Positions 28,520 to 57,806 of a DNA stretch of 64,000 bases are shown one piece after another. Below the pieces are notes generated by a model that saw nothing but the letters and a program-made list of their open reading frames with translations, was not told where the DNA came from and did no database searches. A program made the position numbers and the translations under genes. Each line of letters opens with the position of its first letter. Position 1 is the first letter of the stretch. Source of the DNA: Betaproteobacteria bacterium (GTDB taxonomy: Bacteria > Pseudomonadota > Gammaproteobacteria > Burkholderiales > CAIKXV01); the NCBI GenBank assembly GCA_947458265.1, contig CANGYF010000004.1:142491-206490 (forward strand), in the 5' to 3' direction.

Positions 28520-30397
28520 TCAGGCCGCCTGGGCGAACATCGTGGCCGGGTCGTCGTGCCCGGGCTCGGAGAGCAGGGCCTCCATGTCCAGCACCAGCAC
28601 GACCGAGCCATCGCCGGCAAGTGTCGCTCCGGCCACGCCCTTCGGCTTGATCTGGTCGAGCGGCTTGATCACGACATCATCGCGGCCGATGAAGCCATCC
28701 ACCGCGAGCACCAGCGAGGACAGTGAAGCCTGCAGCAGCACGCCGTAGCGCGGCTGCATCGGCTGTGGCCAGCCGATCAGCCCGGACAGGCTGCGTACCG
28801 GCAGCACCTCGTCGCGCACCACCATCGTGGCGCGTCCGGAGACCGCCTGCACCTCGTTGGCGCGGATCGGGATGATCTCGCGCACCATCGACAGCGGCAC
28901 CGCGAACGGCTGGTCGCCGACCCGCACCACCAGCACCGGCAGGATCGCCAGGGTCAGCGGCAACGCGATCGAGATGCGGGTTCCGGAGCCGGGCTCGGAG
29001 GCGATCTCGATGCGCCCGTTCAACTTCTGGATGTTGCTCTTGACCACGTCCATGCCGACGCCGCGCCCGGACACACTGGACACTTCCTCCTTGGTGGAGA
29101 AGCCGGGCATGAAGATCAGGTGCAGCGCCTGCCGGTCGTCGAGTGCGCTTGCGGCCTCGATGTCGAGCAGTCCCTTCTCGACCGCCTTGCGGCGCAGTAC
29201 GTCTGGTCGCATGCCCCGGCCGTCGTCGCTGATCTCGATCACGATATGGTCGCCGGCCTGGCGTGCGGACAGCCGGACCGTGCCCTTCTCGGGCTTGCCG
29301 GCGGCCCGGCGGTCTTCCGGCGACTCGATGCCATGGTCGGCCGCGTTGCGCACCAGGTGCACCAGCGGATCGTTCAGTTCCTCGACCATCGTCTTGTCGA
29401 GTTCGGTCTCCTCGCCGGAGAGTTCCAGGTCGAGGTCCTTGCCGAGCTGGCGCGCGAGGTCCCGTGCCATCCGGGGATACTTCTGGAACAGTCGGCCGAC
29501 CGGCTGCATCCGCGTCTTCATCACCGCGTTCTGCAGGTCGCCGACCAGCAGGTCGAGTTGGCTCACCGCCTCGTCAAGCGCCCGGAACACTTCGGTAGAC
29601 GTCTTGCCCTGCATGATCTCCGTGCGCAGGCAGGTCAGGCGGTTCTTGGTCAGGCCGATCTCGCCGGACAGGTTGAGCACCTGGTCCAGCCGCGCGGTGT
29701 CGATCCGGATCGTGTTGTCCTTGACCACCAGCTTGTCGTTGTCGCGCCGTCCGGAGCGCTCACCGCGCGCGCCCGGCTGGTCGGTGTCGCGTCGGCCCAG
29801 GGGCGATGGTGCTGCCGGTGCTGCTTCGGCCACGGTAGCGCCGGCGGCCTGAGCCACGGCCGCGGGGGCCGGTACGCCGGTCAGCGCGCCGTACAGCGCC
29901 GGCCAGTCGACTGCCTCGCCTTCCTTGCCGGCCGCCATCGCGGCTGCCGGCGCCGACGGCGGGGTCGCAGCTGCCGGTGTCGCCACCGCGGCGCGCGCCA
30001 GCGGCTCGCCGGAGATCGCGCGCTCGAGATCGGCCAGCAGTGCCGGATCTGCCGGGCCCGAGTGGCCGGACGCGGCCAGCCCATCGAACATGTCCCGAAC
30101 CGAGCCCGTCGCCGACATGATCACGTCCATCAGCGCCGGGTCCAGCTTCAGCGAGCCGTTGCGCAGCAGATCGAACAGGTTTTCGGTCAAGTGGCACAGG
30201 TCGACCAGTGGCTGCACGCAGAGGAAGCCCGCGCCCCCCTTGATGGTGTGGAAGCCACGGAAGATGTGGTTGAGCAGTGCCGGATCGTCCTGCCGCCGCT
30301 CCAGTTCGACCAGCTTGTTGTCGACGTCGGCCAGCAGTTCGCCAGCCTCGGTCAGGAATTCCTTAAGCAGTTCTTGGTCGCCGGAAAAATCGCTCAT
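28520..30397 (-). CDS. cheA: chemotaxis histidine kinase CheA
   Basis: 625 aa. It has the Hpt motif 'FRGFHTIKGGAG', kinase boxes 'HLVRNAADHGIE', 'DDGRGM', 'GFSTK' and 'GRGVGMDVV', and a C-terminal CheW-like domain. Confidence 0.93.
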   Translation of the reverse strand: MSDFSGDQELLKEFLTEAGELLADVDNKLVELERRQDDPALLNHIFRGFHTIKGGAGFLCVQPLVDLCHLTENLFDLLRNGSLKLDPALMDVIMSATGSVRDMFDGLAASGHSGPADPALLADLERAISGEPLARAAVATPAAATPPSAPAAAMAAGKEGEAVDWPALYGALTGVPAPAAVAQAAGATVAEAAPAAPSPLGRRDTDQPGARGERSGRRDNDKLVVKDNTIRIDTARLDQVLNLSGEIGLTKNRLTCLRTEIMQGKTSTEVFRALDEAVSQLDLLVGDLQNAVMKTRMQPVGRLFQKYPRMARDLARQLGKDLDLELSGEETELDKTMVEELNDPLVHLVRNAADHGIESPEDRRAAGKPEKGTVRLSARQAGDHIVIEISDDGRGMRPDVLRRKAVEKGLLDIEAASALDDRQALHLIFMPGFSTKEEVSSVSGRGVGMDVVKSNIQKLNGRIEIASEPGSGTRISIALPLTLAILPVLVVRVGDQPFAVPLSMVREIIPIRANEVQAVSGRATMVVRDEVLPVRSLSGLIGWPQPMQPRYGVLLQASLSSLVLAVDGFIGRDDVVIKPLDQIKPKGVAGATLAGDGSVVLVLDMEALLSEPGHDDPATMFAQAA

Positions 30398-30477
30398 GGC
30401 CGGTCTCGCTTCAGCAGGGTGTACTTTGGTATGGGCAGCACGGGGTGCCCGGCAGTGTCGGGATGTCGCCTGTCCGG

Positions 30478-31203
30478 TCAGAAGCCGAGCGACTCCAGCA
30501 GTTCGTCGACCTGGTCCTGGTTTGAGACCACGTCCTTGCTGCCGTCGTGCTTGATCACCGGGCCGTTAAGCAGGCTCTCGGCCCCGGATCGCTTCTCCGC
30601 AGGCATCTGCTCGACCAGCAGCTGCAGCAGCTTGTGTTCGATGTCGTGGGCCGCGGCGGTGATCTTCTTGATCACCTGCCCGGTCAGGTCCTGGAAGTCC
30701 TGCGCCATCATGATCTCGGTCAGCTGCTGGCGCGTGGCCTCGGTGCGTGTGGGCACGTCGCCGAGGTAGTGCCTGGTCTCTGCGACCAGCACCTTGAATT
30801 CTTCGACCGACAGCTGATTGTCGAACAGGTGTTCCCACTTGGTCGAAAGCGCCTTGGCACCCGTCTCGAGCTCGTCCTGCAACGGGCGCGCGATCTCGGT
30901 TGCGTTGAGGGCGCGTTCGGCTGCCTTCTCGGTGAGCGTGGCCACGTAATTGAGGCGGTCGCGGGTGTCGGGGATGGCGGAGGCGGCCTGCTGCAGCGAC
31001 TTGTCCAGGCCGAGCTGGCGCAGGCTGTCGTGCAGTGCGCGGGTGAGCTTTCCGAGCTTGACCACCACTTCGCCCGACTGAGTGTCGGCCGCACCATGTA
31101 CTGCGTCGCCGCCAGCCACCGGCTCGCCACCGGCGGCCACGATGCTGTCGAAAAGCGCCTCGAGGTCGGGGGAGTCCTGATCCAGAACCGTGCTGTCGTT
31201 CAT
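30478..31203 (-). CDS. cheZ: CheY-P phosphatase CheZ
   Basis: 241 aa with the catalytic-Gln context 'MMAQDFQDLTGQVIKK' and an acidic C-terminal tail 'DQVDELLESLGF'. Confidence 0.9.
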   Translation of the reverse strand: MNDSTVLDQDSPDLEALFDSIVAAGGEPVAGGDAVHGAADTQSGEVVVKLGKLTRALHDSLRQLGLDKSLQQAASAIPDTRDRLNYVATLTEKAAERALNATEIARPLQDELETGAKALSTKWEHLFDNQLSVEEFKVLVAETRHYLGDVPTRTEATRQQLTEIMMAQDFQDLTGQVIKKITAAAHDIEHKLLQLLVEQMPAEKRSGAESLLNGPVIKHDGSKDVVSNQDQVDELLESLGF

Positions 31204-31207
31204 CGCC

Positions 31208-31603
31208 TCACCCCACCTTTTCCATGGTCTTCAGGATCTTGCTGAGCTTCTCGTCGAGCACCGCCGCCGTGAATGGCTTGACGATGTAGCCGCTGGCCTT
31301 GGCCTGCGCCGCCTCGATGATGTTCTCCTTCTTCGCCTCGGCCGTGATCATCAGCACCGGCAGGCTGGACAGCGCCGCATCGCCGCGGATCGCGCGCAGC
31401 AGTTCGATGCCGGTCATGTTCGGCATGTTCCAGTCCGAGATGACGAAGTCGAAGCTGCCACTCTTGAGCTTGGCCAGGGCCACCGCGCCGTCTTCGGCCT
31501 CTTCGATGTTGGTGAAGCCGAGTTCCTTCAGCAGGTTGCGCACGATCCTGCGCATCGTGGAGAAGTCGTCGACGACGAGGAACTTCATGTTTTCCTTGCT
31601 CAT
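31208..31603 (-). CDS. cheY: chemotaxis response regulator CheY
   Basis: 131-aa single REC domain with '[10 protein letters not shown]', '[12 protein letters not shown]', 'MITAEA' and 'YIVKPF'. Confidence 0.95.
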
Positions 31604-31679
31604 TCAGATGCTCCGGAGCGGCTGATGTAGGACGGTTCGGGATTCGGGTCGCGTTGCATGGACGTTCGATGGGTACCCG

Positions 31680-32624
31680 TCAGGCGGCGCGGGCGAGCAG
31701 GGGACGCAGCGTCTCTGCGAGCATGGAGGCATCGAACTTCGCCACGTAGGCATCGACGCCCACGGCCTGGCCCATGGCCCGGCTGGCGCTGGAGGACAGC
31801 GAGGAGTGCATCACCACCGGGATGCCGTTGAAGCGCTTGTCCGCCTTCACCAGTCGGGTGAGCACGTAGCCATCCATCTCGGGCATCTCGGCATCGGCCA
31901 GGATCACCCCGAGGTGCGCGGACAGCGGTGTGCCTTCGGCATCGGCACGCGCTGCCATGGTCTGCAGACTGTCCCAGGCTTCGCGGCCGTTGGTGGCCTG
32001 CAGCGAGCGCACGCCGAGCCGGTCCAGCACGAGGCTGATCTCGCGCCGGGCGACCAGCGAGTCGTCCACGTAGAAGACGGTCGCATCGGACGCGTTGTGC
32101 GCGGGTGCGATCTCCGGCACCAGCGTGTCGCCGTAGACCTGCGCCAGCACGTGCTCGACGTCCAGGATCGACACCAGCCGGTCCTGCTCGAGGCGCGTGA
32201 TGGCGGTGATCGGGTTCTCCGAGGAGGTGAGGCGACTCTCCGGCGGCTTCACCTGGTCCCAGTCGACGCGGATGATGTGTTCGACGTCGTGCACCAGGAA
32301 TGCCTGCGTATGCCGGCTGTACTCGGTGATCATCATCGTTTCGCAGGAAGACAGCGATGGATCGGACAGGCCGGCGAAGCGCGCGAGGTTGATCACCGGG
32401 ATGATGTTGCCGCGAAGGCTGATCACGCCCTCCACGCCGCTGGGCATGTTCGGCGTACGGGTGACCTTCGGGGTCTTCGTGACCTCGCGCACCTTGAACA
32501 CGTTGATGCCGAAGGTCTCGCGGGTGCCGAGGGAGAACAGCAGGATCTCCATCTTGTTCGAGCCGGCGAGGCGGGTGCGTGCATCCACGCTGTCGAGCAT
32601 CGTGCTGTTTTCTGGCATGTCCAT
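31680..32624 (-). CDS. cheV: CheV (CheW-like domain fused to receiver domain), copy 1
   Basis: 314 aa. The N-terminal CheW-like region ('FGINVFKVREV', 'ISLRGNIIPVINL') is followed by a C-terminal REC ('ILADAEMPEMDGY', 'KF'). Confidence 0.9.
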   Translation of the reverse strand: MDMPENSTMLDSVDARTRLAGSNKMEILLFSLGTRETFGINVFKVREVTKTPKVTRTPNMPSGVEGVISLRGNIIPVINLARFAGLSDPSLSSCETMMITEYSRHTQAFLVHDVEHIIRVDWDQVKPPESRLTSSENPITAITRLEQDRLVSILDVEHVLAQVYGDTLVPEIAPAHNASDATVFYVDDSLVARREISLVLDRLGVRSLQATNGREAWDSLQTMAARADAEGTPLSAHLGVILADAEMPEMDGYVLTRLVKADKRFNGIPVVMHSSLSSSASRAMGQAVGVDAYVAKFDASMLAETLRPLLARAA

Positions 32625-32727
32625 CGGGGAGTGTCCTGGTGTCGTCTGTCCGGTGCGGGAGTCGGGGATCGGGAAGCCCGGAGGAAGAGGGAAAGTCGGC
32701 GTGCTTGCCTGATACGGTCGCCTTCGT

Positions 32728-33669
32728 TCAGACGAGCAGGCGCGCCAGCGTGGCGGCGAGCCGCTGCGGCTCGAACTTCGACACGTATTCGTCGACCCCG
32801 ACCGACTTGCCGAGCTTCTGGTTGGAATCGCCTGACAGGGAGGAGTGCATCAGTACCTTGATGCCCTTGAAGCGCGTATCCGACTTGATGCGGCGGGTCA
32901 GCATGTAGCCGTCCATCTCCGGCATCTCGACGTCGGTGAGGACGATCTGCACGCTCTGTACAAGGGGCTCGCCGCGCGAAGTCGACTGGTCGGCCAGCCG
33001 CAGCAGCGTCTCCCAGGCCTGGCGGCCGTTGACCGCCTGGATGTGGTGCACGCCGAGCGCATCCAGGGTGCGCGAGATCTGCTTGCGCGCGGTGCTGGAG
33101 TCATCGGCGAAGAACACGGTGCGGCCTTCCTTGCCGAGCGGGACCACGTGGCGGTAGACATCCTCGTCTTCGGTGCCGGTGGTGTCGGAGAGAATCTTCT
33201 CGACGTCCATCATCATCACCAGCCGGCCGTCGGCGAGTTCCGTCACCGCGGTGATCAGGCCGCTCATGTTCTGCGCGAGCATGGCCGGCGGCACCTTCAT
33301 CTTCGCCCAGTCCAGGCGCAGGATGGTGTCGACCGCGGCCACCAGTAGGCCCTGGGTCCGCCCGTTGTATTCGGTGACGATCATCACCTCCGGCGTGGTG
33401 TCGCTGGGAATGCCGGTGTAGCGCACCAGATCGATGACCGGCACCAGCACGCCGCGCAGGCTCACCATGCCCATTACCGAGCTGGGCATTTCCGGGGCGC
33501 TGGTGATCGGGGGCGTGCGCATCACCTCGCGCACCTTGAACACATTGATGCCGAAGGTCTCGGTGCGTCCGGTCCTGGAGTCGAGGCCCAGGGAGAACAT
33601 CAGGATCTCGAGCTTGTTGGTACCGGCGAGCCGGGTGCGTGCGTCAATGCTCTGTAGGAGGTCGGACAT
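32728..33669 (-). CDS. cheV: CheV (CheW-like domain fused to receiver domain), copy 2
   Basis: 313 aa with the same architecture as copy 1 ('FGINVFKVREV', 'VSLRGVLVPVIDL', 'VLTDVEMPEMDGY'). Confidence 0.9.
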   Translation of the reverse strand: MSDLLQSIDARTRLAGTNKLEILMFSLGLDSRTGRTETFGINVFKVREVMRTPPITSAPEMPSSVMGMVSLRGVLVPVIDLVRYTGIPSDTTPEVMIVTEYNGRTQGLLVAAVDTILRLDWAKMKVPPAMLAQNMSGLITAVTELADGRLVMMMDVEKILSDTTGTEDEDVYRHVVPLGKEGRTVFFADDSSTARKQISRTLDALGVHHIQAVNGRQAWETLLRLADQSTSRGEPLVQSVQIVLTDVEMPEMDGYMLTRRIKSDTRFKGIKVLMHSSLSGDSNQKLGKSVGVDEYVSKFEPQRLAATLARLLV

Positions 33670-33699
33670 TGGGATTCCCGTGTGGATCCGTGCGGGGGG

Positions 33700-35328
33700 T
33701 CAGGCGCGGAACTGGCTGACCTGCTGGTTCACGGCTTCGGCGAGTCCTTCGAGGTCGCGTGCCGCATCGGTCGCGACGACGATGGCACGGCTCGAGTCCT
33801 CGGCCATGCGGGCGATGCGCTCCACATGGCGTGCGATCTCCTGGCTGGCGTTACGCTGTTCGGACGCCGCCGACGCGATGTCGCCGACGTAGTTGCTGGT
33901 GGAACCTGCGCCTTCCTGAATCTGTGCGAGTGCCCGCTCGACCTCGTTCGACAGGCCGACGCCTTCGTCGACCTGGGTGGTGCTGCGCTGGAGCTGGGCT
34001 ACCGCGCTGGCGACTTCCGTCTGGATGGTGCTGGTCAGTGCGGAGATCTCGGTGGTAGACGCACCAGTGCGCTCGGCCAGCTTGCGTACCTCGTCAGCGA
34101 CGACCGCGAAGCCTCGGCCCTGCTCGCCGGCCCGGGCCGCCTCGATCGCCGCGTTCAGCGCCAGGAGGTTGGTCTGTTCGGAGATGTCGCGGATCACGTC
34201 GACGATGGTCGAGATCTCGGCCGAGCGTCTCGACAGCGCTTCGATCAGTCGCGACGAGTCCTGCACCGACCCGGCGAGCCGCGTCATGGCCTCTGCCGCC
34301 TTGCGCATGGTCTCGCGGCCGGTCTCGGACAGGGTGCTTGCCTCCTGGGCGATGCCCCGGGTCTGCTCGGCATGCTCGGCCACATGGCTGATGCTGACCG
34401 ACACCTGCTCGACCGCCGCTGCAGTCGACGAGGCCGCTTCGCTCTGCGCCTGCGCTTGCCCCGCGATGTCGCGCGTGGCCCCGGCGACGCTGGTCGATGC
34501 GCCGGACAGGCGTCCTGCGTCCTGCTTCAACCTGCCCACGGTCTGCTGCAATTGCACCATCAGGCCATTGAAGGCGTCCATCGCCTGGCCGAGTTCGTCG
34601 TGGCCGGCACCTCGCGCGCGCACCGTGAGATCATTGTCGCGCTGGGCGGCCTTCAGCGCATCGCGCAAGCCGTTGAGAGGGTTCAGGATCGAACGGCTGA
34701 CCAGCAGGCCGAAGCCCAGCAGCACGAGCGCGCCCGCGAGGCTGATGCCGACGGTAACCCAGCGGGTCGTCTGTTGGCGGGCGGTTGCCGCCTCGTATTC
34801 CTTGCGGACTTCCTCGACCTGCAGCGCAGTCAGCGCGGTCAGCGCCTCGCTCAGCCCGTTCCAGGGTGCTTCGACTTCGCCGGTGATGATCGTGCGTGCG
34901 GCCGGCATGTTGCCCGCCTTGAGTTCGGCGGCCGCCGGCTTCAGGCCATCGTCGATGAATCGCTTGAGCCGGGGCAGGGTGCTCTTCTGCAGTTCCGCCT
35001 CTTCCCGCGTGCTGCCCGTGGCGAGGTAGTCGGCGAGTGCCTTCTCCGCCTCGGCGACCCGGGCCTCGATACGCGCGGCACGCGCGGCGGCGGCCTCCCT
35101 GGTGTTTTCCACGACAGCGAACGCAGCGTCGGCGCGGGCCCGGGTCAGGCGCTCCACGACGGCGGCGATGTGCAGTTGTGCGACCATCCGGTCTTCGTAC
35201 ACAACCCGCAAGGTCTCCTTCGCCCCGCTCAAGCTCTGGAAGGCGACCACGGACAGCATCACGATCACGAGCAAGGGTAGGAGGGCCATGGCCCAGAGGC
35301 GCTGTGCGACAGTCAGGCTATTCAACAT
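33700..35328 (-). CDS. methyl-accepting chemotaxis protein
   Basis: 542 aa. It has an N-terminal TM segment, a helical periplasmic sensor, a second TM segment and a HAMP domain. The conserved signalling hairpin is '[38 protein letters not shown]'. Confidence 0.93.
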
Positions 35329-35393
35329 GCTTGCAACTCCGGTGGATGGCGTCGTGCGCTGGCGTGCATTCAGATGGTCGAGCCGTTAACGGC

Positions 35394-42349: not shown

Positions 42350-42352
42350 TCG

Positions 42353-43750
42353 ATGTCACATGAAGCGGGCGGCGACAACCGCTACACCCGGGGCATCGCT
42401 GAGTTCGTCTCCGGGTTGCGTTACGAGGACGTTCCGCCCGAGGTGCTGGCGCGGATCAAGCTGCTGATGCTCGATTCGCTCGGCTGCGCACTGTACGGCG
42501 CCGACCTCGAGTGGAGCCGCATCCTGCAGCGCATGCTGTCGGTGGTCGATGCCACGCGTACCTGCCCGGTCTGGGGCACCGACCAGCGCCTTTCTGCCCC
42601 GCATGCGGCCCTGGTCAATGGCACGCAGGTACAGGGCTTCGAACTCGACGACGTTCACCGCGCCGGCGTGCTGCATGTCGGCGCCGTCGTGCTGCCGGCG
42701 CTGATCGCCGTGGCGCAGATGCGCCCCGGCATGACCGGTCGCGAGTTCCTGGCCGCGGCGGTGGCCGGCTACGAGGTCGGCCCGCGCGTCGGGCTGTGCA
42801 TGGGCCCGGAGCACATCGCCCAGGGCTGGCATTCGGGTGCGACCCTCGGTGTGTTTTCGGCAGCCGCCGGCGCGGCGCGCGGCCTTGGCCTCGATGCCGA
42901 CCGGACCGTGCATGCCCTGGGCATCGCCGGCACCCAGGCCGCCGGCCTGATGGCCGCGCAGTACGGTGCGATGGTCAAGCGGGTGCATGCTGGCCGTTCG
43001 TCGCAGAGCGGCCTCTACGGTGCGCTGTTCGCGCGCGAGGGCCTGACCGGCATCGTCAACGTGCTCGAGAGCGAGTACGGCGGCTACTGCACGACCTTCT
43101 CGCGCTCGACCGACCGCTTCAACCTGTCGGAGCTCACTGCCGGGTTCGGAACCACGTGGCAGACCATGGGCGTCGCGCTGAAGTTCTATTCCTGCGTCGG
43201 CAGCAACCACACGACGCTGGATGCGATCCGCGACATGCAGGCCGAGCGTGCGTTCGGTGCCGAGGAGGTCGACCGCATCCTGGTGCACGGCTCGCAGGTG
43301 ACGATGGACCATGTCGGCTGGAAGTACGTGCCGCAGGGGCTGACCTCAGCCCAGTTGAACCTGCCGTACTGCGTGGCGACCTGGCTGCTCGAGGGCGACT
43401 GCTTTGTCGACCAGTTCACTGACGACAAGGTGGCCGACCCGGAGCGCATGCGCATCGCGCAGAAGGTCGCCGTGCAGCATGACGACGTGATCACCGCCAA
43501 GGGCGCGAAGTACCGGCACGAGGTCAGGGTCGAACTCTGGCTGAAGGATGGCACCCGCTTCGAACGCCGGGTCGAGTCGGCGCGCGGCAGCGAGTACCGC
43601 TTCGCCTCGGATGCCGACGTGGTCGAGAAGTTCGGCAAGCTGGCGTCCAAGGCGCTGCCGCCGCGCAAGGTCGAGGCCCTGCGCGATGCGATCCTCGGTC
43701 TCGACACGCTGGCCGACGCCTCCACCCTCGGCGAACTGCTCGTCCGGTGA
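42353..43750 (+). CDS. MmgE/PrpD-family protein (not PrpD proper)
   Basis: 465 aa with 'LMLDSLGCALYG', 'NGTQVQGFELDDVH' and 'GWHSGATLGVF' blocks. It starts 4 nt after the preceding stop. Confidence 0.88.
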   Translation: MSHEAGGDNRYTRGIAEFVSGLRYEDVPPEVLARIKLLMLDSLGCALYGADLEWSRILQRMLSVVDATRTCPVWGTDQRLSAPHAALVNGTQVQGFELDDVHRAGVLHVGAVVLPALIAVAQMRPGMTGREFLAAAVAGYEVGPRVGLCMGPEHIAQGWHSGATLGVFSAAAGAARGLGLDADRTVHALGIAGTQAAGLMAAQYGAMVKRVHAGRSSQSGLYGALFAREGLTGIVNVLESEYGGYCTTFSRSTDRFNLSELTAGFGTTWQTMGVALKFYSCVGSNHTTLDAIRDMQAERAFGAEEVDRILVHGSQVTMDHVGWKYVPQGLTSAQLNLPYCVATWLLEGDCFVDQFTDDKVADPERMRIAQKVAVQHDDVITAKGAKYRHEVRVELWLKDGTRFERRVESARGSEYRFASDADVVEKFGKLASKALPPRKVEALRDAILGLDTLADASTLGELLVR

Positions 43751-44002
43751 GTCTCGCGCCGGAGGCGAGATTACAGACTGCGGCGCGCGTGCTGGCCGGG
43801 TACGCTGCCGGCATCACATGCGCGGCGGACGAAAGCCCACGGAGACCAACTTGAATGACATGAAGGCACCGGCCGCAGTCGGCCAGTCACCGCTGACCCC
43901 GCCCCAGGTGCGGGCGATGTATCCGGGCGCGCTTTGGTGTCGGATCGAGCGGATGCAGGCGCTGTGCAGCGAATGGACCGGCGCGCGCGCGTCGGCGGTC
44001 CC

Positions 44003-44920
44003 ATGAGTTTCGATGTGATCGTGGTGGGCGAGGGCATTGCCGGCCTGGCCACGGCGCGCGACTGTGCGCGGGCCGGCCTGCGCACCGGTACTGTCGAGCA
44101 GTTGATGTTCGGTGGGCTGGTGACCTCGATCAACGAGCTGGTCGACTGGCCTGCCGAGGGCGGCGACCCCTGCTCCGGCAGCGACGTGGCGACGAACTGG
44201 ATCACCGAGGCGGCCGATGCCGGGGTCGAGAGCCTGGGCGGCTGCGCGATCGGGCTGGCGAGCGCACCGGGCGGCCTGCTGCTGCACACCGATGCCGGCA
44301 GCCACGAGGCGCGCTGCGTGGTCGTGGCCTCCGGCGCGTCGCGCCGGCCGCTGGGCATCGCCGGGGAGGAAGACTACGCCGAGCGCGGCCTGTCGCATTG
44401 TGCCGACTGCGATGGCCCGCTGGTCAAGGGGGCCGACGTGGTGGTGGTCGGCGGTGGCGACAGTGCGCTGCAGGAGGCCGCGGTGCTGGCGCACTATGCG
44501 CGCACGGTACATGTCGTGCACCGGGGCAGCGCGTTTCGCGCGCGGCCGTCGGTGCGCGCGCTCTTCGAGCGCGCCTTCGAGGGCCGGCCCGATGCACTGC
44601 AGGTACACTGGCAATCGACGGTGTCGGCCATTGAAGGTGCCGGTGGCGTCGAGGCGGTCATCGTCGACGGGCCGTCCGGTGCGTCGCGGCTGCCGGTGCG
44701 CGCGGTGTATCCCTGCGTCGGCCTGGTGCCCAACAGCGGCTGGACCGGCCTGGCCACCGATGCGCAGGGTGCAATCGTCACCGATGACAGGCTGGCGGCG
44801 TCGTTGTCTGGAGTGTTCGCCGTCGGTGCGGTGCGCGCTGGCCATGGTGGTCGGCTGATCGACGCGGTAGCCGATGGCGCACTGGCCGCGAAGTCCGTGA
44901 AGGAGGCATTGCAATGCTGA
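44003..44920 (+). CDS. thioredoxin-reductase-like FAD/NAD(P)H disulfide oxidoreductase
   Basis: 305 aa from ATG 44003. It has the FAD fold 'VIVVGEGIAGL', a redox pair 'SHCADCDG' (canonical TrxB is CATCDG), 'VVVVGGGDSALQEA' and 'HRGSAFRA'. Confidence 0.85.
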   Translation: MSFDVIVVGEGIAGLATARDCARAGLRTGTVEQLMFGGLVTSINELVDWPAEGGDPCSGSDVATNWITEAADAGVESLGGCAIGLASAPGGLLLHTDAGSHEARCVVVASGASRRPLGIAGEEDYAERGLSHCADCDGPLVKGADVVVVGGGDSALQEAAVLAHYARTVHVVHRGSAFRARPSVRALFERAFEGRPDALQVHWQSTVSAIEGAGGVEAVIVDGPSGASRLPVRAVYPCVGLVPNSGWTGLATDAQGAIVTDDRLAASLSGVFAVGAVRAGHGGRLIDAVADGALAAKSVKEALQC

Positions 44921-45585
44921 AGCTCTGGGGAAGGCTCACGTCCAACCGCACGCAGAAGGTGCTGTGGACGCTGGCCGAGGTCGGCATCGAGTTCGAGATG
45001 ATCCTCGCCAGCGGCGTGATGGGTGCCGGCGGCCATGTCGCGAAGGGCAACAAGCCGTTCGGCCTGGTCGACACACCGGAGTACCGCGCGCTCAACCCGA
45101 ACGGGCGAATCCCGACGATCGACGACGACGGCTACGTGCTCTGGGAGTCGAACGCGATCTGCCGCTATCTGGTGATGCAGTACGCACCGGAGGCGATGTA
45201 CGGCAACGACGTGCGCACCTTCGCCTCGGCGACCCGCTGGCAGGATTTTGAGAACAACGAGCTGCTGCCGCCGCAGCACGAACTGGTGATGGAGCTGGTG
45301 CGCCTGCCGCCGGAGCAGCGCAGCGCCGACAACCTGGCCAAGGCCCGTGCCGCGTTCAACAAGCGGCTGGAGATCATCGAGGCACAGCTCGCGCGCACCC
45401 GCTACATGGTCGGCGACCGGTTCACGTTCGGCGACATCCCGATCGGCATCCGGGTGCATCGCTGGGTGCTGCTCGAGGCCGAGCGTCCGCGGTTTCCGAA
45501 CATCGAGCGCTGGTATGCCTCGCTGATCGAGCGGCCTGCCTTCCAGCGCTTCAGCGCAGACCCGGCCAACCATGTCGAGGGGTGA
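44914..45585 (+). CDS. glutathione S-transferase family protein
   Basis: 223 aa with the N-terminal thioredoxin-like part 'NPNGRIPTIDDDGYVLWESNAICRYL'. It overlaps the preceding gene by 7 nt. Confidence 0.9.
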   Translation: MLKLWGRLTSNRTQKVLWTLAEVGIEFEMILASGVMGAGGHVAKGNKPFGLVDTPEYRALNPNGRIPTIDDDGYVLWESNAICRYLVMQYAPEAMYGNDVRTFASATRWQDFENNELLPPQHELVMELVRLPPEQRSADNLAKARAAFNKRLEIIEAQLARTRYMVGDRFTFGDIPIGIRVHRWVLLEAERPRFPNIERWYASLIERPAFQRFSADPANHVEG

Positions 45586-45690
45586 TTGCGCCGGGGACGT
45601 CGGGGACGCACGCCCGTGCCTGCAATAGGTAAACTCCGGCCATCCTGAGCCGGCCCGTGAAGCCGGCGCACCATGGCCCCGGAGGACTTG

Positions 45691-46710
45691 ATGGACCGAT
45701 TCGATACCCCCACGCGCCCAGCCGCGCACACGCCTGCCACATCGACGCTGGCACTGACCCTGGCACTGGCCGCGTCTGCCGCGGCGATGCTCCCCGTCGG
45801 CGCGGCTGCCCAGGCACAGGCCTGGCCGGTCAAGCCGGTGCGGGTGATCTTCCCCTATCCCCCTGGCGGCGGCACCGACGCGGTCGGGCGCATCGCGACC
45901 AACGCGCTCACCGAGCAGCTCGGGCAGACCTTCATCGTCGATACCCGGCCTGGTGCCAGCGGCCAGATCGGCACCGAGGTCGCCAGCAAGTCGCCGGCCG
46001 ACGGCTACACGCTGGTCCTGGGCAACGTCGCGCCGCTGGCGATCCTGCCGGCGTCCAACCCGAAGCTGCCCTACGATCCGCTGCGTGACCTGGCTCCGAT
46101 CAGCCTGATCGCCACCTCCGATTACATCCTCACCGTGCACCCGTCGCTGCCGGTGAAGAACCTGAGTGACCTGCTCGCGCTCGCGAAGAAGCGCCCGGGC
46201 GAACTCAGCTTCGCCTCCAGCGGCGCGCTGGGCGGGCCGCACCTGGCGGGCGAACTGCTGAACCTGCTCGGTGGCGTCAACATGCTGCATGTGCCCTACA
46301 AGGGCAATGGCCCGGCGGTGGTCGCCGTGCTGTCTGGCGAGGCGACGATGCTCTATGGCACCGGGCCAGCCGTGGTTCCATTCGCGCAGCAGGGCAGGAT
46401 GCGCATCATCGCCACCACCGGCCTCACGCGCACGATCAAGGACGTGCCGGCGATCGCCGAGCAGATCAAGGACTTCCAGGTCACCCAGTGGTACGGGCTG
46501 CTGGCGCCCGCGGGTACGCCGCGCGAGATCATCGACCGCCTGGCGAAGGAGACCGCGCGCGCCGTGGCCGATCCGAAGAATGCGGCGGCGCTGGTGAAGC
46601 TCGGCGCCGATCCCATGACGAACAGCCCCGCCGACTTCCGGCGCTTCATCGAGGGCGAGATCGCGCGTTACACCAAGGTGGTGAAGGCGGCCAAGCTGAC
46701 CGCGCAATGA
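45691..46710 (+). CDS. Bug-family (TctC-like) substrate-binding protein
   Basis: 339 aa from ATG 45691 (RBS GGAGGA 4 nt upstream; ATG 45673 is an alternative). The signal ends AQA|WPVKP and is followed by 'FPYPPGGGTD'. Confidence 0.9.
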   Translation: MDRFDTPTRPAAHTPATSTLALTLALAASAAAMLPVGAAAQAQAWPVKPVRVIFPYPPGGGTDAVGRIATNALTEQLGQTFIVDTRPGASGQIGTEVASKSPADGYTLVLGNVAPLAILPASNPKLPYDPLRDLAPISLIATSDYILTVHPSLPVKNLSDLLALAKKRPGELSFASSGALGGPHLAGELLNLLGGVNMLHVPYKGNGPAVVAVLSGEATMLYGTGPAVVPFAQQGRMRIIATTGLTRTIKDVPAIAEQIKDFQVTQWYGLLAPAGTPREIIDRLAKETARAVADPKNAAALVKLGADPMTNSPADFRRFIEGEIARYTKVVKAAKLTAQ

Positions 46711-47735
46711 GTGGCGGGCAGGACCTCGACCCGTTCGAGTTCTTCTTCGACAAGCCGTGGAGTGACGGCCTGCCGGTGGTGACACCGACGCAGGAGCGGC
46801 TCGACTGGATGCTCGGTGGCACCCGGCGCGATCCGACCGAGGTGGTCGGGCCGGTGCCCCCGGCGATGAACGTCGCCACCGTGCGCGATGTCGCACTGCA
46901 TGCGGTGATGGCCGGCTGCCGCCCCGACTACCTGCCGGTGGTGCTCGGCGGCCTCGCGCTGATCCTGCAGGAGCCGTTCAACATGAACGGCGTGCAGGGC
47001 ACGATGCATGGCGTCGCACCGCTGATGATCGTCAACGGGCCGTACGCGGCGAAGATCGGGCTGCACGGCGGCAACGGTTGCCTCGGGCCGGGCTTTCGCG
47101 CGAACGCCACCATCGGCCGCGCGATCCGTCTGCTGCTGCTCAACCTCGGCGGCGGCATCCCGGGCCTGGCTTCGGCCACCGTGCTGTCGACGCCGCAGCG
47201 CTACACCGCCTGCTGGACCGAGAACACCGAGCGCAGCCCGTGGGAGACGCTTGCCGTGTCGCGCGGCTACCGCGCGGACGAAGACGTGATCACCTGCGCC
47301 ATGGTCGAGAGCCCGCGCCTGTGCTACGACGACGTGAGTCAGGAGCCCGTACGCCTGCTCACCGGCATCGCCGACACGATGGCTGCGATGAGCAGCTGGA
47401 ACATGCACGTCCGCTCCGACATGGTGGTGGTGATGGGGCCCGAGCAGGCAACGGTCTGCGATCGCGCCGGCTGGCCTCGAGCGCGGGTGCATGAATGGCT
47501 GGTCGCCAACGCCGGCATGAAGGTGGTGGACATGCGCCGCGGCGGCAACTGGCGCGACGAGCGGGCACGGAAGATCGGTGTCGATCCGTCGGACGACGCT
47601 GCGTTCGTGCCGGTGATCAAGGACGCGCGCGACCTGCACCTGATGGTTGCGGGAGGGTGGGGTCCCGTGAGCGCGGTGGCGCATGGCTGGGGCGGCGGCA
47701 GCCGCGCGGTGCAGGGCACCTACCGCACGGATTGA
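46707..47735 (+). CDS. conserved protein of unrecognised family, paralog A (342 aa)
   Basis: ATG 46707 overlaps the Bug stop (ATGA). The coding signal is strong, with high third-position GC. About two thirds of positions are identical by eye to the next gene. I can name no domain. Confidence 0.8.
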   Translation: MSGGQDLDPFEFFFDKPWSDGLPVVTPTQERLDWMLGGTRRDPTEVVGPVPPAMNVATVRDVALHAVMAGCRPDYLPVVLGGLALILQEPFNMNGVQGTMHGVAPLMIVNGPYAAKIGLHGGNGCLGPGFRANATIGRAIRLLLLNLGGGIPGLASATVLSTPQRYTACWTENTERSPWETLAVSRGYRADEDVITCAMVESPRLCYDDVSQEPVRLLTGIADTMAAMSSWNMHVRSDMVVVMGPEQATVCDRAGWPRARVHEWLVANAGMKVVDMRRGGNWRDERARKIGVDPSDDAAFVPVIKDARDLHLMVAGGWGPVSAVAHGWGGGSRAVQGTYRTD

Positions 47736-47778
47736 CGTGCAGCACCATTGGCGGGGATGACCGCAGGGAAGGGATGCA

Positions 47779-48798
47779 GTGATCGACGAGTTCGAATTCT
47801 TCCTCGAGAAGCCGTGGTCGGACGGGCTTCCGGTGGTGACACCGACCGAGGCGCGGCTGGCCCCCTTCCTGGCGGCAGCCGGGCGCGACCCGGACGAGCC
47901 GATCGGCCGCGTGCCGCCAGCGATGGAGCCGGTCACGGTGCGTATCGCTGCGATCCATGCGCTGATGGCCGGCTGCCGTCCCGAGTACCTGCCGGTCGTG
48001 CTCGGCGCGCTGCCGCTGGTCCTGCGCGACGAGTTCAACCTGAACGGCGTGCAGGGCACGATGCATGGCGTGGCACCCCTGATGATCGTCAACGGCCCGC
48101 ATGCGGCGAAGATCGGGCTCAATGGCGGCAACGGCTGCTTCGGCCCCGGTTTTCGCGCCAACGCGACCATCGGCCGTGCGATCCGGCTGATGCTGCTCAA
48201 CCTCGGCGGCGGCATGGCCGGCATCGCCTCGGCCACCATCTTCGCGACGCCGATGCGCTACACCGCGTGCCTCACCGAGAACGTCGCACGCAGCCCGTGG
48301 GATAGCCTCGCTGCCTCGAAAGGCTACGCGGCTGGCGATGACGTGATCACCTGCGCGATGGTCGAGAGCCCGCGCCTGCACTTCGACGACGTGAGCCAGG
48401 AGCCCGAGCGCCTGCTGACCGGCATCGCCGACGGCATGACTGCGCTCGGTTCATGGAACATGCATGCCCGCTCGGACATGGTGGTCGCCATGGGTCCGCA
48501 GCATGCGACGATCTGCGCGCAGGCCGGCATGAGTCGCGAAGACGTGCACCGCTGGCTGGTCGAACACGCCGGGCGTACGGTCGGCGACCTCAAGCGTGGC
48601 GGTAACTGGCGGCGCGAGCGTGCGCTGCAGTTCCCGATCAAGGTCGACCCCGACGACGATACCTGCTTCATCCCGACGCTGAAGGATCCGGTCGACCTGC
48701 AACTGATCGTCGCCGGTGGCTGGGGTCCATGCACCGCGATCTGCCATGGCTGGAGCGGCGGCAGCCGTGCGGTGCATGGCACCTATGCCGTCCGATGA
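47779..48798 (+). CDS. conserved protein of unrecognised family, paralog B (339 aa)
   Basis: GTG start at 47779 follows GGGAAGGGA. It shares blocks with paralog A: KPWSDGLPVVTPT, NGVQGTMHGVAPLMIVNGP, GGNGC(L/F)GPGFRANATIGRAIRL, DVITCAMVESPRL, GGWGP..HGW(G/S)GGSRAV. Confidence 0.8.
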   Translation: MIDEFEFFLEKPWSDGLPVVTPTEARLAPFLAAAGRDPDEPIGRVPPAMEPVTVRIAAIHALMAGCRPEYLPVVLGALPLVLRDEFNLNGVQGTMHGVAPLMIVNGPHAAKIGLNGGNGCFGPGFRANATIGRAIRLMLLNLGGGMAGIASATIFATPMRYTACLTENVARSPWDSLAASKGYAAGDDVITCAMVESPRLHFDDVSQEPERLLTGIADGMTALGSWNMHARSDMVVAMGPQHATICAQAGMSREDVHRWLVEHAGRTVGDLKRGGNWRRERALQFPIKVDPDDDTCFIPTLKDPVDLQLIVAGGWGPCTAICHGWSGGSRAVHGTYAVR

Positions 48799-48826: not shown

Positions 48827-49354
48827 ATGAACGAACTGCCCTTCATCGACCCGACCGCGGGCGGCAACCGTCCGCCGGTCGCCCTCGCACCGCGTCCGAT
48901 GGATCTCGCCGGCAAGGTCGTGGCGATGATCGACAACACCAAGGAGCAGGGCAGCCTGATCCTCGAGACGGTCGCCCAGGTGCTGCGCGAACGCCATGGC
49001 GTCGCCAAGGTGATCATCCGGCGCAAGGAGCACTACTCCAAACCGGCCACCGACCAGCTGATCGACGAACTCGCGCAGGAGGCCCACCTGGCCGTCGCTG
49101 CCGTGGGTGGGTGAGGGTCCTGCACGTTGTGCAGTGTGCACGACACCGTGGAATTCGAGAAACGCGGCATCCCCGCGACCGTCATCATCACGCAGGCCTT
49201 CCGCAATGCCTGCATCTTCCAGTTCCGGTCCAAGGGCATGGCCGGCCATCCGTACATCGAGCTGCCGCATCCGATCAGCAACATGACCGAAGACGAAATG
49301 CGCGAAGTGACGCTGAAGGAAGTCGATGCGCTGGTGAAGCAGCTGGTCGCCTGA
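48827..49354 (+). CDS. candidate selenoprotein with U-G-S-C-T-L-C motif (in-frame TGA at 49112-49114 read as Sec, codon 96 of 175)
   Basis: ATG 48827 lies 8 nt after GGAAGGA. Track ORFs 48716..49114 and 49127..49354 are in the same frame and separated only by TGA plus four sense codons. The downstream part lacks an ATG and an RBS. A hairpin follows the TGA directly. Confidence 0.78.
49117..49144 (+). promoter_or_regulatory. SECIS-like hairpin immediately 3' of the in-frame UGA
   Basis: GUC-C-UGCAC (49117-49125) pairs with GUGCA-C-GAC (49136-49144), giving 8 Watson-Crick pairs and one C.C mismatch. The stem can extend by G.U, U.G and U-A pairs to a GUGC tetraloop at 49129-49132. The hairpin starts 3 nt after the UGA. 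Confidence 0.45.
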
Positions 49355-57730: not shown

Positions 57731-57806
57731 TGGCGCCCCGAAGACGAATCGAACGTCCGACCTGCCCCTTAGGAGGGGGCTGCTCTATCCACTGAGCTAC
57801 CGGGGC
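57731..57806 (-). tRNA. tRNA-Arg (anticodon CCU)
   Basis: The minus strand reads GCCCCGG-TA-GCTC-AGTGGATA-GAGC-A-GCCCC-CTCCTAA-GGGGC-AGGTC-GGACG-TTCGATT-CGTCT-TCGGGGC-G-CCA. This is a 76-nt cloverleaf with an encoded CCA and a TTCGA T-loop. Confidence 0.92.

What the first reader, a model, noticed from the sequence alone, without database searches (positions are those of the whole stretch)
49117..49144. Hairpin in the position expected for a bacterial SECIS element
Directly after the UGA (49112-49114) the mRNA can fold. GUC/GAC (49117-49119 with 49142-49144) and UGCAC/GUGCA (49121-49125 with 49136-49140) pair around a C.C mismatch. The stem can extend by G.U, U.G and U-A pairs to a GUGC apical loop at 49129-49132. 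Bacterial SECIS elements are stem-loops within about 40 nt 3' of the UGA, with G/U in the apical loop. An alternative 6-bp fold, CUGCAC-GUU-GUGCAG, competes with this one. The fold was drawn by hand without energy calculation.
Basis: seen in the sequence. Interest (0 to 1): 0.6.

Follow-up and report, generated by a model that had tools for sequence, protein, structure and literature searches.

The report
SECIS hairpin of a UGSC selenoprotein gene

Summary
That fold is no better than shuffled sequence (z -0.1 to -0.5) and is nearly isoenergetic with two overlapping alternatives.

The gene (48827-49354, UGA at 49112-49114) scores above cut-off for NCBIfam NF041046 "UGSC family (seleno)protein" and Pfam PF24696.

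All 80 related genome loci keep the UGA. In codons 100-106 (49124-49144) the synonymous sites are frozen, while neighbouring codons are saturated with synonymous change.

This footprint, one compensatory double change, four distant Sec-containing paralogs and RNAalifold all support an 8-bp hairpin. It pairs 49126-49133 with 49137-49144 around a GUG loop at 49134-49136.

The hairpin starts 11 nt after the UGA and places G and U at positions 23 and 24, as in E. coli fdhF. It meets every sequence and structure criterion of the bacterial SECIS consensus.

In 90 distinct Cys-encoding homologues the same sites vary freely, and only 1 of 90 has G-U at the first two loop positions.

Verdict: a genuine but ordinary SECIS in a known family, with the pairing scheme corrected. 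SelB binding and Sec insertion remain untested.

The parts
48827..49354 (+). Coding sequence of a UGSC-family selenoprotein. It is 175 codons long, with an ATG start, Sec as codon 96 and the motif G-G-U-G-S-C-T-L-C.
   Evidence: Translation. NCBIfam NF041046 scores 133.5 bits against a cut-off of 125. Pfam PF24696 scores 162.4 bits against 25. The coding signature continues past the UGA: identity at codon positions 1+2 is 0.82 and at position 3 is 0.57, on both sides of the UGA.
49112..49114 (+). In-frame UGA read as selenocysteine.
   Evidence: TGA is present at the aligned codon in all 80 genome loci, plus a second copy in L044. Cys (TGY) occupies the same position in 111 metagenomic family members and in plasmid and haloarchaeal homologues.
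49115..49125 (+). 11-nt spacer between the UGA and the base of the hairpin (codons G97, S98, C99 and the first two bases of T100).
   Evidence: Third-codon positions +5 and +8 vary freely, with entropy 1.4-1.7 bits. The 11-nt spacing equals that of the E. coli fdhF minimal SECIS.
49126..49133 (+). 5' arm of the SECIS hairpin, GUUGUGCA (+14 to +21 from the U of UGA).
   Evidence: It pairs with 49137-49144. Pairing is 99.8% across 65 distinct Sec-form sequences and it is the RNAalifold consensus.
49134..49136 (+). Apical loop GUG. G49134 and U49135 are positions 23 and 24 counted from the U of UGA.
   Evidence: The loop is GUG in 61 of 61 distinct main-clade sequences and in three distant paralogs, and GUC in a fourth. 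U49135 is the third base of the Ser codon AGU. The 17 Cys-form sequences with the peptide TSWSVHD, which matches that of Sec forms L081 and L082, all use AGC there. The positions match G23/U24 of E. coli fdhF.
49137..49144 (+). 3' arm of the SECIS hairpin, UGCACGAC (+25 to +32).
   Evidence: Compensatory changes: G17-C29 to A-U in L065, C20-G26 to G-C in four paralogs, and G14-C32 to A-U in L059:475.
49124..49144 (+). Footprint of frozen synonymous sites, codons 100-106 (ACG UUG UGC AGU GUG CAC GAC).
   Evidence: Synonymous-codon entropy is 0-0.1 bit here. It averages 1.10 bit over 99 other well-conserved codons, none of which falls below 0.28.
49117..49144 (+). It is a nearly isoenergetic competitor that is not conserved outside the main clade.
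49120..49134 (+). Second competitor fold, CUGCAC-GUU-GUGCAG.
   Evidence: -7.5 kcal/mol. No double changes, and the 8-22 pair is broken in 21 of 65 sequences. Its loop lies 11 nt from the UGA.
49352..49354 (+). True stop codon (UGA) of the gene.
46698..48798 (+). Genomic context: two paralogous ~340-aa 'partner' genes (46698-47735 and 47779-48798) immediately upstream.
   Evidence: The partner-UGSC adjacency is kept in most of the 80 loci and in plasmid and haloarchaeal homologues, and the two are fused in L081 and L084. No Pfam or NCBIfam family matches.

Best explanation
Window 48827-49354 encodes a member of the UGSC selenoprotein family, and the UGA at 49112-49114 is decoded as selenocysteine.

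The cis-signal is a 19-nt hairpin that starts exactly 11 nt after the UGA. Its 8 base pairs join 49126-49133 to 49137-49144 and close a GUG triloop at 49134-49136.

What is shown here:
- the position of the hairpin
- its pairing and covariation
- the freezing of its synonymous sites in Sec forms only
- its fit to the sequence and structure rules of the bacterial SECIS consensus

What is inferred from the E. coli and Moorella paradigm: when the UGA sits in the ribosomal A site, roughly the first dozen downstream nucleotides lie inside the mRNA channel. The +14 to +32 hairpin stands at the channel entrance. There its loop G23/U24 would be bound by the C-terminal domain of SelB, which delivers Sec-tRNA(Sec).

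The hairpin is codon-phased. Third positions pair with third positions (14-32, 17-29, 20-26) and the central U is a third position. This explains why seven consecutive codons, and the peptide T-L-C-S-V-H-D, are frozen across the clade.
For: 1. Family membership: NF041046 at 133.5 bits (cut-off 125) and PF24696 at 162.4 bits. The family has been described since the Sargasso/GOS selenoproteome work, with 255 Sec and 21 Cys members in GOS.

2. The UGA is conserved in 80 of 80 genome loci. The best 120 database proteins are truncated at it or start upstream of it (the 21 Sec-form hits aligned all end at AAVGG). The coding signature downstream equals that upstream.

3. Synonymous sites +14, 17, 20, 23, 26, 29 and 32 are invariant in 61 distinct sequences (entropy 0-0.12 bit). 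The flanking sites +5, +8, +35 and +38 have 1.2-1.7 bits.

4. The only two exceptions occur together in L065. They are G17A and C29U, which is compensatory for pair 17-29.

5. Four Sec-form paralogs at 31-36% amino-acid identity (Acidovorax and Paracoccus plasmids, two in L059) keep the same register and a GUG or GUC loop. They show C20-G26 to G-C swaps.

6. The count of structure pairs: 99.8% of cells paired, 3 pairs and 6 cells with double changes, 0 of 500 shuffles as high. All slid registers score worse. RNAalifold predicts the same structure.

7. Among 90 distinct Cys forms retrieved without conditioning on third positions, the same sites have 0.7-1.7 bits. Only 6 of 90 have 8 of 8 pairs, and only 1 of 90 has G-U at the first two loop positions.

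8. All four sequence/structure criteria of the bacterial SECIS consensus are met: 3-nt loop, 8-bp stem, loop starting G-U, 19 nt from UGA to loop, and -8.8 to -10.3 kcal/mol.

9. The spacer (11 nt) and the G23/U24 positions equal those of E. coli fdhF. The fdhF sequence was verified in 5419 genomes.
Against: - No experiment exists: SelB binding and Sec insertion are inferred.
- No selA, selB, selD or tRNA-Sec gene lies in the 64-kb window. The rest of the genome could not be inspected.
- Within the main clade the hairpin is invariant. Covariation therefore rests on one double change (L065) plus four distant paralogs, so independent events are few.
- Five of the eight pairs involve first and second codon positions fixed by the peptide. 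Some Cys forms, such as Halorientalis L088 with 8 of 8 pairs and loop CGA, form the stem without any Sec machinery. Part of the complementarity is therefore a by-product of the amino-acid motif.
- The bulged U17 of the E. coli element is absent.
Confidence: 0.85

Rival explanations
1. One reading: GUC/GAC 49117-19 with 49142-44, plus UGCAC/GUGCA 49121-25 with 49136-40, and apical loop GUGC 49129-32.
For: All of its pairs except the outermost are kept in the 61 main-clade sequences. Its energy is -9.6 to -10.0 kcal/mol, and it is the minimum-free-energy structure in 28-, 35-, 44- and 60-nt contexts. Its loop also begins with G-U.
Against: - The G5-C32 pair is broken in 27 of 65 sequences, and C11-G26 is broken in all four distant Sec paralogs.
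- It has one double change, a level reached by 66 of 500 shuffles.
- It does not explain the invariance of +17, +20, +29 and +32, nor the linked G17A/C29U change in L065.
- Its loop starts 14 nt (11 nt without the extension) after the UGA, outside the 16-37 nt consensus.
- Its 5' arm would lie inside the ribosome when the UGA is in the A site (inference).
Confidence: 0.06
2. There is no functional RNA element. The complementarity is a by-product of the conserved peptide (CxxC...HD) and GC-rich codon usage.
For: Five of the eight pairs are fixed by first and second codon positions. Cys forms with similar peptides reach 5-8 of 8 pairs, and haloarchaeal Cys forms reach 7-8 of 8. The region's fold energy is not better than that of shuffles.
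Against: Amino-acid constraint cannot freeze seven synonymous sites, including the rare Ser codon AGU, while neighbouring codons are saturated. Cys forms with the peptide of Sec forms L081 and L082 vary at exactly these sites and use AGC. Compensatory changes keep the pairs.
Confidence: 0.03
3. Both folds matter. The upstream UGCAC (49121-25) sequesters the 3' arm of the SECIS until the translating ribosome unwinds it. The SelB-binding hairpin would then form only as the UGA reaches the A site.
For: The three folds are mutually exclusive and lie within about 1-3 kcal/mol of each other. The alternative pairs are intact throughout the main clade.
Against: The alternative pairs involve bases already fixed by the Cys and Thr codons, so their conservation carries no information. 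The variable partners (+5, +8) show no selection for pairing. The alternatives are lost in the paralogs, which still keep the Sec codon.
Confidence: 0.05
4. The TGA is a true stop codon: either two separate small genes or a pseudogene.
For: Public gene callers annotate only the 96-aa N-terminal fragment. No Sec machinery is visible in the window.
Against: TGA is conserved in 80 of 80 species-level genomes, with an intact frame and purifying selection downstream. Cys occupies the aligned position in full-length homologues. The curated family model expects Sec there.
Confidence: 0.01

Closest known systems
E. coli fdhF SECIS (the SelB-binding minimal upper stem-loop)
   Same: Both lie in the coding region directly after the Sec UGA. 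Both stem-loops start at +14, an 11-nt spacer. G and U sit at positions 23 and 24 from the U of UGA in the apical loop. Shown by direct comparison with the verified fdhF sequence, with rules taken from PMC11431864 and PMC8659212.
   Different: The stem here is an uninterrupted 8 bp rather than 3+3 bp with a bulged U17. The loop is a GUG triloop rather than the GGUC tetraloop. No lower stem is conserved in the main clade: +8/+38 pair in 23% of sequences against 29% expected. SelB binding has not been tested.
Bacterial SECIS consensus model (bSECISearch; Zhang and Gladyshev, as summarised in PMC13188914)
   Same: All four stated constraints are met by 49126-49144: loop of 3-9 nt, stem of 4-16 bp, G in the first two loop positions followed by U, 19 nt from UGA to loop, and free energy of -7.5 kcal/mol or lower.
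   Different: Nothing beyond being at the short-loop end of the allowed range.
UGSC-containing selenoprotein family (NCBIfam NF041046, Pfam PF24696)
   Same: It scores above both curated cut-offs, has the U-G-S-C motif, and has Cys-containing homologues at the same position. The family is reported as abundant in non-marine aquatic samples. The closest relatives here are Burkholderiales and Betaproteobacteria MAGs, several of them from lakes.
   Different: None at the family level. This clade has an invariant U-GSCTLCSVHD peptide, whereas other clades have TSW or SSW variants.
Selenoprotein B of the glycine/sarcosine/betaine reductases (GrdB, GrdF, GrdH)
   Same: There is weak similarity around the Sec region: residues 72-164 match profile positions 322-409, with E = 5e-4 to 8e-3. 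trxB or trxA genes lie next to UGSC-partner pairs in Arthrobacter and Roseovarius plasmids, and a TrxB-like gene lies in this window.
   Different: The scores are far below the cut-offs (19 bits against 602). The protein is 175 aa rather than about 430 aa. No grdA, grdC, grdD or grdE genes were seen. It is not a member of that family.

Membership tests
Bacterial SECIS (consensus model) | [quoted passage not shown] | tested here: met
   UGA at 49112-14 with the hairpin at 49126-44. Cys forms are aligned at the same codon.
Bacterial SECIS (consensus model) | Apical loop of 3-9 nt on an upper stem of 4-16 bp. | tested here: met
   3-nt loop and 8-bp stem. Criteria.
Bacterial SECIS (consensus model) | G in one of the first two loop positions, usually followed by G or U. 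| tested here: met
   The loop is G-U-G, invariant in 61 of 61 main-clade sequences and GUG or GUC in the paralogs.
Bacterial SECIS (consensus model) | 16-37 nt between the UGA and the apical loop. | tested here: met
19 nt for 49126-44.
Bacterial SECIS (consensus model) | Free energy of -7.5 kcal/mol or lower. | tested here: met
   -8.8 kcal/mol isolated and -10.3 in context. Threshold.
Bacterial SECIS (consensus model) | Structure under selection: covariation, and loss of constraint in Cys forms. | tested here: met
Bacterial SECIS (consensus model) | Binds SelB and directs Sec insertion. | not testable with these tools
   This needs a gel shift, a reporter assay or 75Se labelling.
Bacterial SECIS (consensus model) | The host genome carries selA, selB, selC and selD. 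| not testable with these tools
   None is in the 64-kb window. The rest of the genome is not available.
E. coli fdhF-type minimal SECIS | Upper stem-loop placed 11 nt from the UGA. | tested here: met
   The spacer 49115-49125 is 11 nt.
E. coli fdhF-type minimal SECIS | G23 and U24 in the apical loop. | tested here: met
   G49134 and U49135 are positions 23 and 24.
E. coli fdhF-type minimal SECIS | Bulged U17 in the 5' arm. | tested here: not met
   The stem has no bulge. Position 17 (U49128) forms a U.G wobble in the main clade and is a paired C in the paralogs.
UGSC family (seleno)protein (NF041046 / PF24696) | Whole-protein HMM score above the curated cut-off. | tested here: met
   133.5 against 125 bits, and 162.4 against 25 bits, with U replaced by C in the query.
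UGSC family (seleno)protein (NF041046 / PF24696) | U/C-G-S-C motif at the end of the N-terminal half. | tested here: met
   G-G-U-G-S-C at codons 94-99.
GrdB-type selenoprotein B | Whole-protein HMM score above the cut-off. | tested here: not met
   19 bits against a cut-off of 602.

The most novel reading that the evidence does not exclude
The three mutually exclusive helices could form a ribosome-gated switch. In free mRNA the upstream UGCAC (49121-25) would compete for the 3' arm of the SECIS. The SelB-binding hairpin 49126-44 would then be presented only once the ribosome has unwound +5 to +13, just as the UGA enters the A site.

Separately, and beyond the hairpin itself, the UGSC protein may form an uncharacterised selenium-dependent redox system with three neighbouring genes: the family-less ~340-aa partner (adjacent or fused), a TrxB-like flavoprotein and a TctC-type binding protein.
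Probability: 0.1. Interest if true: 0.45.

Novelty: new member of a known kind. Interest (0 to 1): 0.28.

Why it matters
The result confirms that the UGA is a selenocysteine codon in a widespread freshwater and soil betaproteobacterial gene. Public gene callers truncate this gene almost everywhere: all 120 best database hits cover only about half the protein.

It also gives the correct SECIS register for the largest clade of the UGSC family. That register can be used to annotate these genes and to design read-through or heterologous-expression constructs.

The locus is a clean natural example of dual coding. A codon-phased hairpin freezes 21 nt and seven amino acids across more than 60 distinct sequences, and the constraint disappears in Cys forms.

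The biology of the SECIS itself is textbook. The protein's function and its obligate partner remain unknown.

Tried and rejected
- Rfam: no family matched at gathering thresholds in the whole window, and only chance snoRNA hits (E 0.28-2.8) appeared in 49080-49200 at permissive thresholds.
- Thermodynamic significance: z-scores near zero, so it was rejected as evidence either way.
- Lower stem in the main clade: no excess pairing between variable columns (+8/+38 paired in 23% against 29% expected), so rejected.
- The closest Cys form, P0004: its contig is not on record.
The C-terminal 79 aa were used instead.
- The diverse Cys-form alignment A2 was too divergent for the search for related loci. 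A first DNA pattern had too few plain bases. A degenerate DNA pattern was used instead.
- PDB sequence searches with the UGSC protein and the partner gave only chance hits with E above 0.2.
- The AlphaFold model of the partner, from a 33-sequence alignment, had mean pLDDT 56. That is too poor for a fold search, so none was run.
- A scan for other in-frame TGA read-through candidates found three more sites (23893, 42347, 33702). All look like ordinary stops followed by the next gene in the same frame.
- A search for selA, selB and selD among window ORFs found none.

Full report
**The observation.** The UGA is at 49112-14. GUC 49117-19 faces GAC 49142-44, and UGCAC 49121-25 faces GUGCA 49136-40, across a C/C mismatch (49120 and 49141). 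A G.U/U.G/U-A extension leads to a GUGC loop at 49129-32. The competing CUGCAC-GUU-GUGCAG fold is also there.

**Thermodynamics.** The 6-bp fold scores -7.5 and the third fold -10.3. The minimum-free-energy structure flips with the flanks. The third fold wins in 49-, 66-, 101- and 201-nt contexts, with ensemble probability 0.64-0.90. No context folds better than dinucleotide shuffles, with z between -0.08 and -0.53. Only the isolated 19-mer stands out, at z = -2.5. Thermodynamics therefore neither supports nor refutes a SECIS.

**The gene.** Translating 48827-49354 through the UGA gives a 175-aa protein with the motif G-G-U-G-S-C-T-L-C. With U written as C, it scores 133.5 bits on NCBIfam NF041046 "UGSC family (seleno)protein" (cut-off 125) and 162.4 bits on Pfam PF24696. 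This family has been known since the Sargasso/GOS selenoproteome analyses. In GOS it had 255 Sec and 21 Cys members and was most frequent in non-marine samples. It is listed in a 2026 review under NF041046, with function still uncharacterised. All 120 best database proteins cover only 48-65% of the query and most are 96 aa long. In the 23-sequence alignment, the 21 database hits other than the Cys form P0004 all end at "AAVGG", which means they are truncated at the UGA.

**Comparative evidence in Sec forms.** A scan of one genome per GTDB species returned 80 loci, mostly Burkholderiales and Betaproteobacteria MAGs. L001-L007 are 96-98% identical to the window.
- All 80 loci, plus a second copy in L044, have TGA at the aligned codon, followed by the invariant peptide GSCTLCSVHD.
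- Overall amino-acid identity to the window runs from 62% to 99%.
- Identity at codon positions 1+2 is 0.82 and at position 3 is 0.57, on both sides of the UGA. The downstream part is therefore translated.
- Codons 100-106 (ACG UUG UGC AGU GUG CAC GAC, 49124-49144) have synonymous entropy of 0-0.1 bit. The average over 99 other conserved codons is 1.10 bit, with a minimum of 0.28. The immediately flanking codons G97, S98, T107 and V108 have 1.1-1.65 bit.
- The frozen set includes the rare Ser codon AGU. Amino-acid constraint cannot produce this pattern.

**Which fold?** The frozen third positions are +14, 17, 20, 23, 26, 29 and 32, counted from the U of UGA as 0. In the third fold these are exactly the pairs 14-32, 17-29 and 20-26 plus the central loop base.
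- The only two exceptions to invariance occur together in L065. They are UUG to UUA and CAC to CAU, which turns G17-C29 into A-U.
- Four distant Sec-form paralogs (31-36% identity) keep the same register, +14..+21 with +25..+32, and a GUG or GUC loop at +22..+24. They are two genes in L059 and genes on the Acidovorax sp. T1 and Paracoccus ferrooxidans plasmids. They show C20-G26 to G-C swaps and U16.G30 to C-G changes.
- On 65 distinct Sec-form sequences, the third fold is 99.8% paired, with double changes at 3 pairs (6 cells). None of 500 shuffles reaches this, and every slid register scores worse.
G5-C32 is broken in 27 of 65 sequences and C11-G26 in all four paralogs. Its single double change is matched by 66 of 500 shuffles.
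- The 6-bp fold shows no double change.
- RNAalifold independently returns the third fold.
- No lower stem is conserved in the main clade.

A degenerate DNA pattern was scanned against metagenome contigs. It fixed only the first and second codon positions of C-G-S-C-x-x-[C/W]-x-x-H-D. It returned 120 stretches, of which 111 are family members by HMM and 90 are distinct.
- In these Cys forms the sites +14 to +32 have entropy 0.7-1.7 bit, similar to their flanks.
- Register pairs number 3 to 8, and only 6 of 90 sequences reach 8 of 8.
- The three third-position pairs are all formed in 11 of 90 sequences.
- G-U at the first two loop positions occurs in 1 of 90.
- The 17 sequences with the peptide TSWSVHD, which matches the Sec forms L081 and L082, all use AGC rather than AGU for the loop Ser.
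- Sec forms are 61 of 61 with 8 of 8 pairs and loop GUG.

The refutation criterion, that the structure is equally conserved in Cys orthologues, is therefore not met. One nuance is recorded. Five of the eight pairs are fixed by the peptide, and haloarchaeal Cys forms reach 7-8 of 8 pairs with loops CGA or CAA. Part of the stem therefore comes for free, or is a relic of a Sec ancestor.

**Comparison with what is known.** The bacterial SECIS consensus requires:
- a 3-9 nt loop on a 4-16 bp stem
- G in the first two loop positions, usually followed by G or U
- 16-37 nt between the UGA and the loop
- free energy of -7.5 kcal/mol or lower

Hairpin 49126-44 meets all four, with 19 nt of spacing.

In E. 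coli the minimal element is a 17-nt upper stem-loop 11 nt from the UGA, with U17, G23 and U24 critical. I recalled the fdhF sequence from memory and verified it at 100% identity within fdhF in 5419 E. coli genomes. Its stem-loop starts at +14 and carries G and U at +22 and +23, as this hairpin does. The differences are an uninterrupted 8-bp stem, a triloop, and no bulged U. Rfam has no matching family.

**Mechanism.** The shown and inferred steps are set out in the best explanation above. It rests on general knowledge of ribosome footprints and of the E. coli and Moorella SelB-SECIS work, not on a tool result. No selA, selB, selD or tRNA-Sec gene is in the window. Whether the genome encodes the Sec machinery could not be tested.

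**Context.** On the + strand the genes run in this order:
- an MmgE/PrpD-family gene (42350-43747)
- a TrxB-like flavoprotein gene (43859-44917; TIGR01292 at 188.9 bits, below its cut-off)
- a GST-N-like gene (44788-45582)
- a TctC gene (45673-46710)
- two paralogous ~340-aa partner genes (46698-47735 and 47779-48798)
- the UGSC gene

The partner has no Pfam or NCBIfam family. It has more than 5700 homologues, and every one in the 120 listed that carries a name is called "hypothetical protein". It sits next to UGSC in most loci and in Paracoccus, Arthrobacter, Roseovarius and haloarchaeal plasmids, sometimes with trxB or trxA. It is fused to UGSC in Acidovorax L081 and Variovorax L084. An AlphaFold model of the partner was too poor to use, with pLDDT 56.

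**Verdict.** This is a genuine SECIS in a known selenoprotein family. It is ordinary in kind, well supported by comparison, and untested experimentally.

Noticed in passing
window 46698-47735 and 47779-48798: Two tandem paralogous ~340-aa genes (69% identical) lie directly upstream of the selenoprotein gene. They have no Pfam or NCBIfam family. They have more than 5700 database homologues, and every named one among the 120 listed is called 'hypothetical protein'. The partner-UGSC adjacency is kept in most of the 80 loci and in plasmids of Paracoccus, Arthrobacter, Roseovarius and haloarchaea.
   Followed up: partly
L081:2977-~4600 (Acidovorax sp. T1 plasmid) and L084:2941-4578 (Variovorax plasmid): The UGSC domain and the partner domain are fused in one reading frame, as a Sec form in Acidovorax and a Cys form in Variovorax. 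The fused part shares the motifs W-x-D-G-L-P..PPT and A-x-x-A-x-M-A-G-C-x-P-E-Y-L-P-V with the window's partner. This is probably the 'UGSC/Unknown_1 fusion' mentioned in the GOS paper.
   Followed up: partly
window 42350-46710: Upstream, on the same strand, lie an MmgE/PrpD-family gene, a TrxB-like flavoprotein gene (below the thioredoxin-reductase cut-off), a GST-N-like gene and a TctC/Bug solute-binding gene. trxB, trxA or NAD(P)/FAD oxidoreductase genes also flank UGSC-partner pairs in Arthrobacter, Roseovarius, Variovorax and Haloterrigena plasmids. This hints at a thioredoxin-reductase-fed redox system.
   Followed up: partly
L062:1377 and L063:654: Two further Sec-form UGSC paralogs (motifs U-G-S-S-T-P-W and U-G-S-C-A-S-A-C) use a different SECIS register. 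It has a GC-rich 5-bp stem with loop CGUGA or CGUGCA starting at +27 instead of +22. It still falls within the bacterial consensus.
   Followed up: partly
L088:1756 (Halorientalis) and L092:1726 (Halalkalicoccus): Haloarchaeal Cys forms (CGSCSSWT[IM]HD) still form 8 of 8 and 7 of 8 pairs in the SECIS register but have loops CGA or CAA. This is either a by-product of the S-W...H-D peptide or a fossil of a Sec ancestor.
   Followed up: partly
L044:978-3191 and L059:244-9622: Some genomes carry several modules. L044 has two tandem partner-UGSC pairs. L059 has three Sec-form UGSC genes, one of the main clade and two distant ones with the gene order UGSC-partner.
   Followed up: no
proteins P0001-P0120: The closest database proteins are nearly all 96-aa fragments ending at the UGA. 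One is even named 'urease gamma subunit'. This selenoprotein is systematically truncated in public gene calls.
   Followed up: no
window 1839-22700: This is a central-metabolism cluster. It holds two tandem acnA paralogs, prpD, a 2-methylcitrate synthase gene, mdh, sdhA, sdhB, gltA, sucA, sucB and a dihydrolipoamide-dehydrogenase-like gene.
   Followed up: partly
window 28520-35385 (- strand): This is a chemotaxis cluster: cheA-like, cheZ, two CheW-receiver (CheV-like) genes and an MCP gene. Four TctC-family binding-protein genes are scattered through the window (24927, 38574, 45673 and 54098).
   Followed up: no
window 57731-57806 (- strand): tRNA-Arg(CCU) is the only tRNA gene in the window. 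There is no tRNA-Sec.
   Followed up: yes
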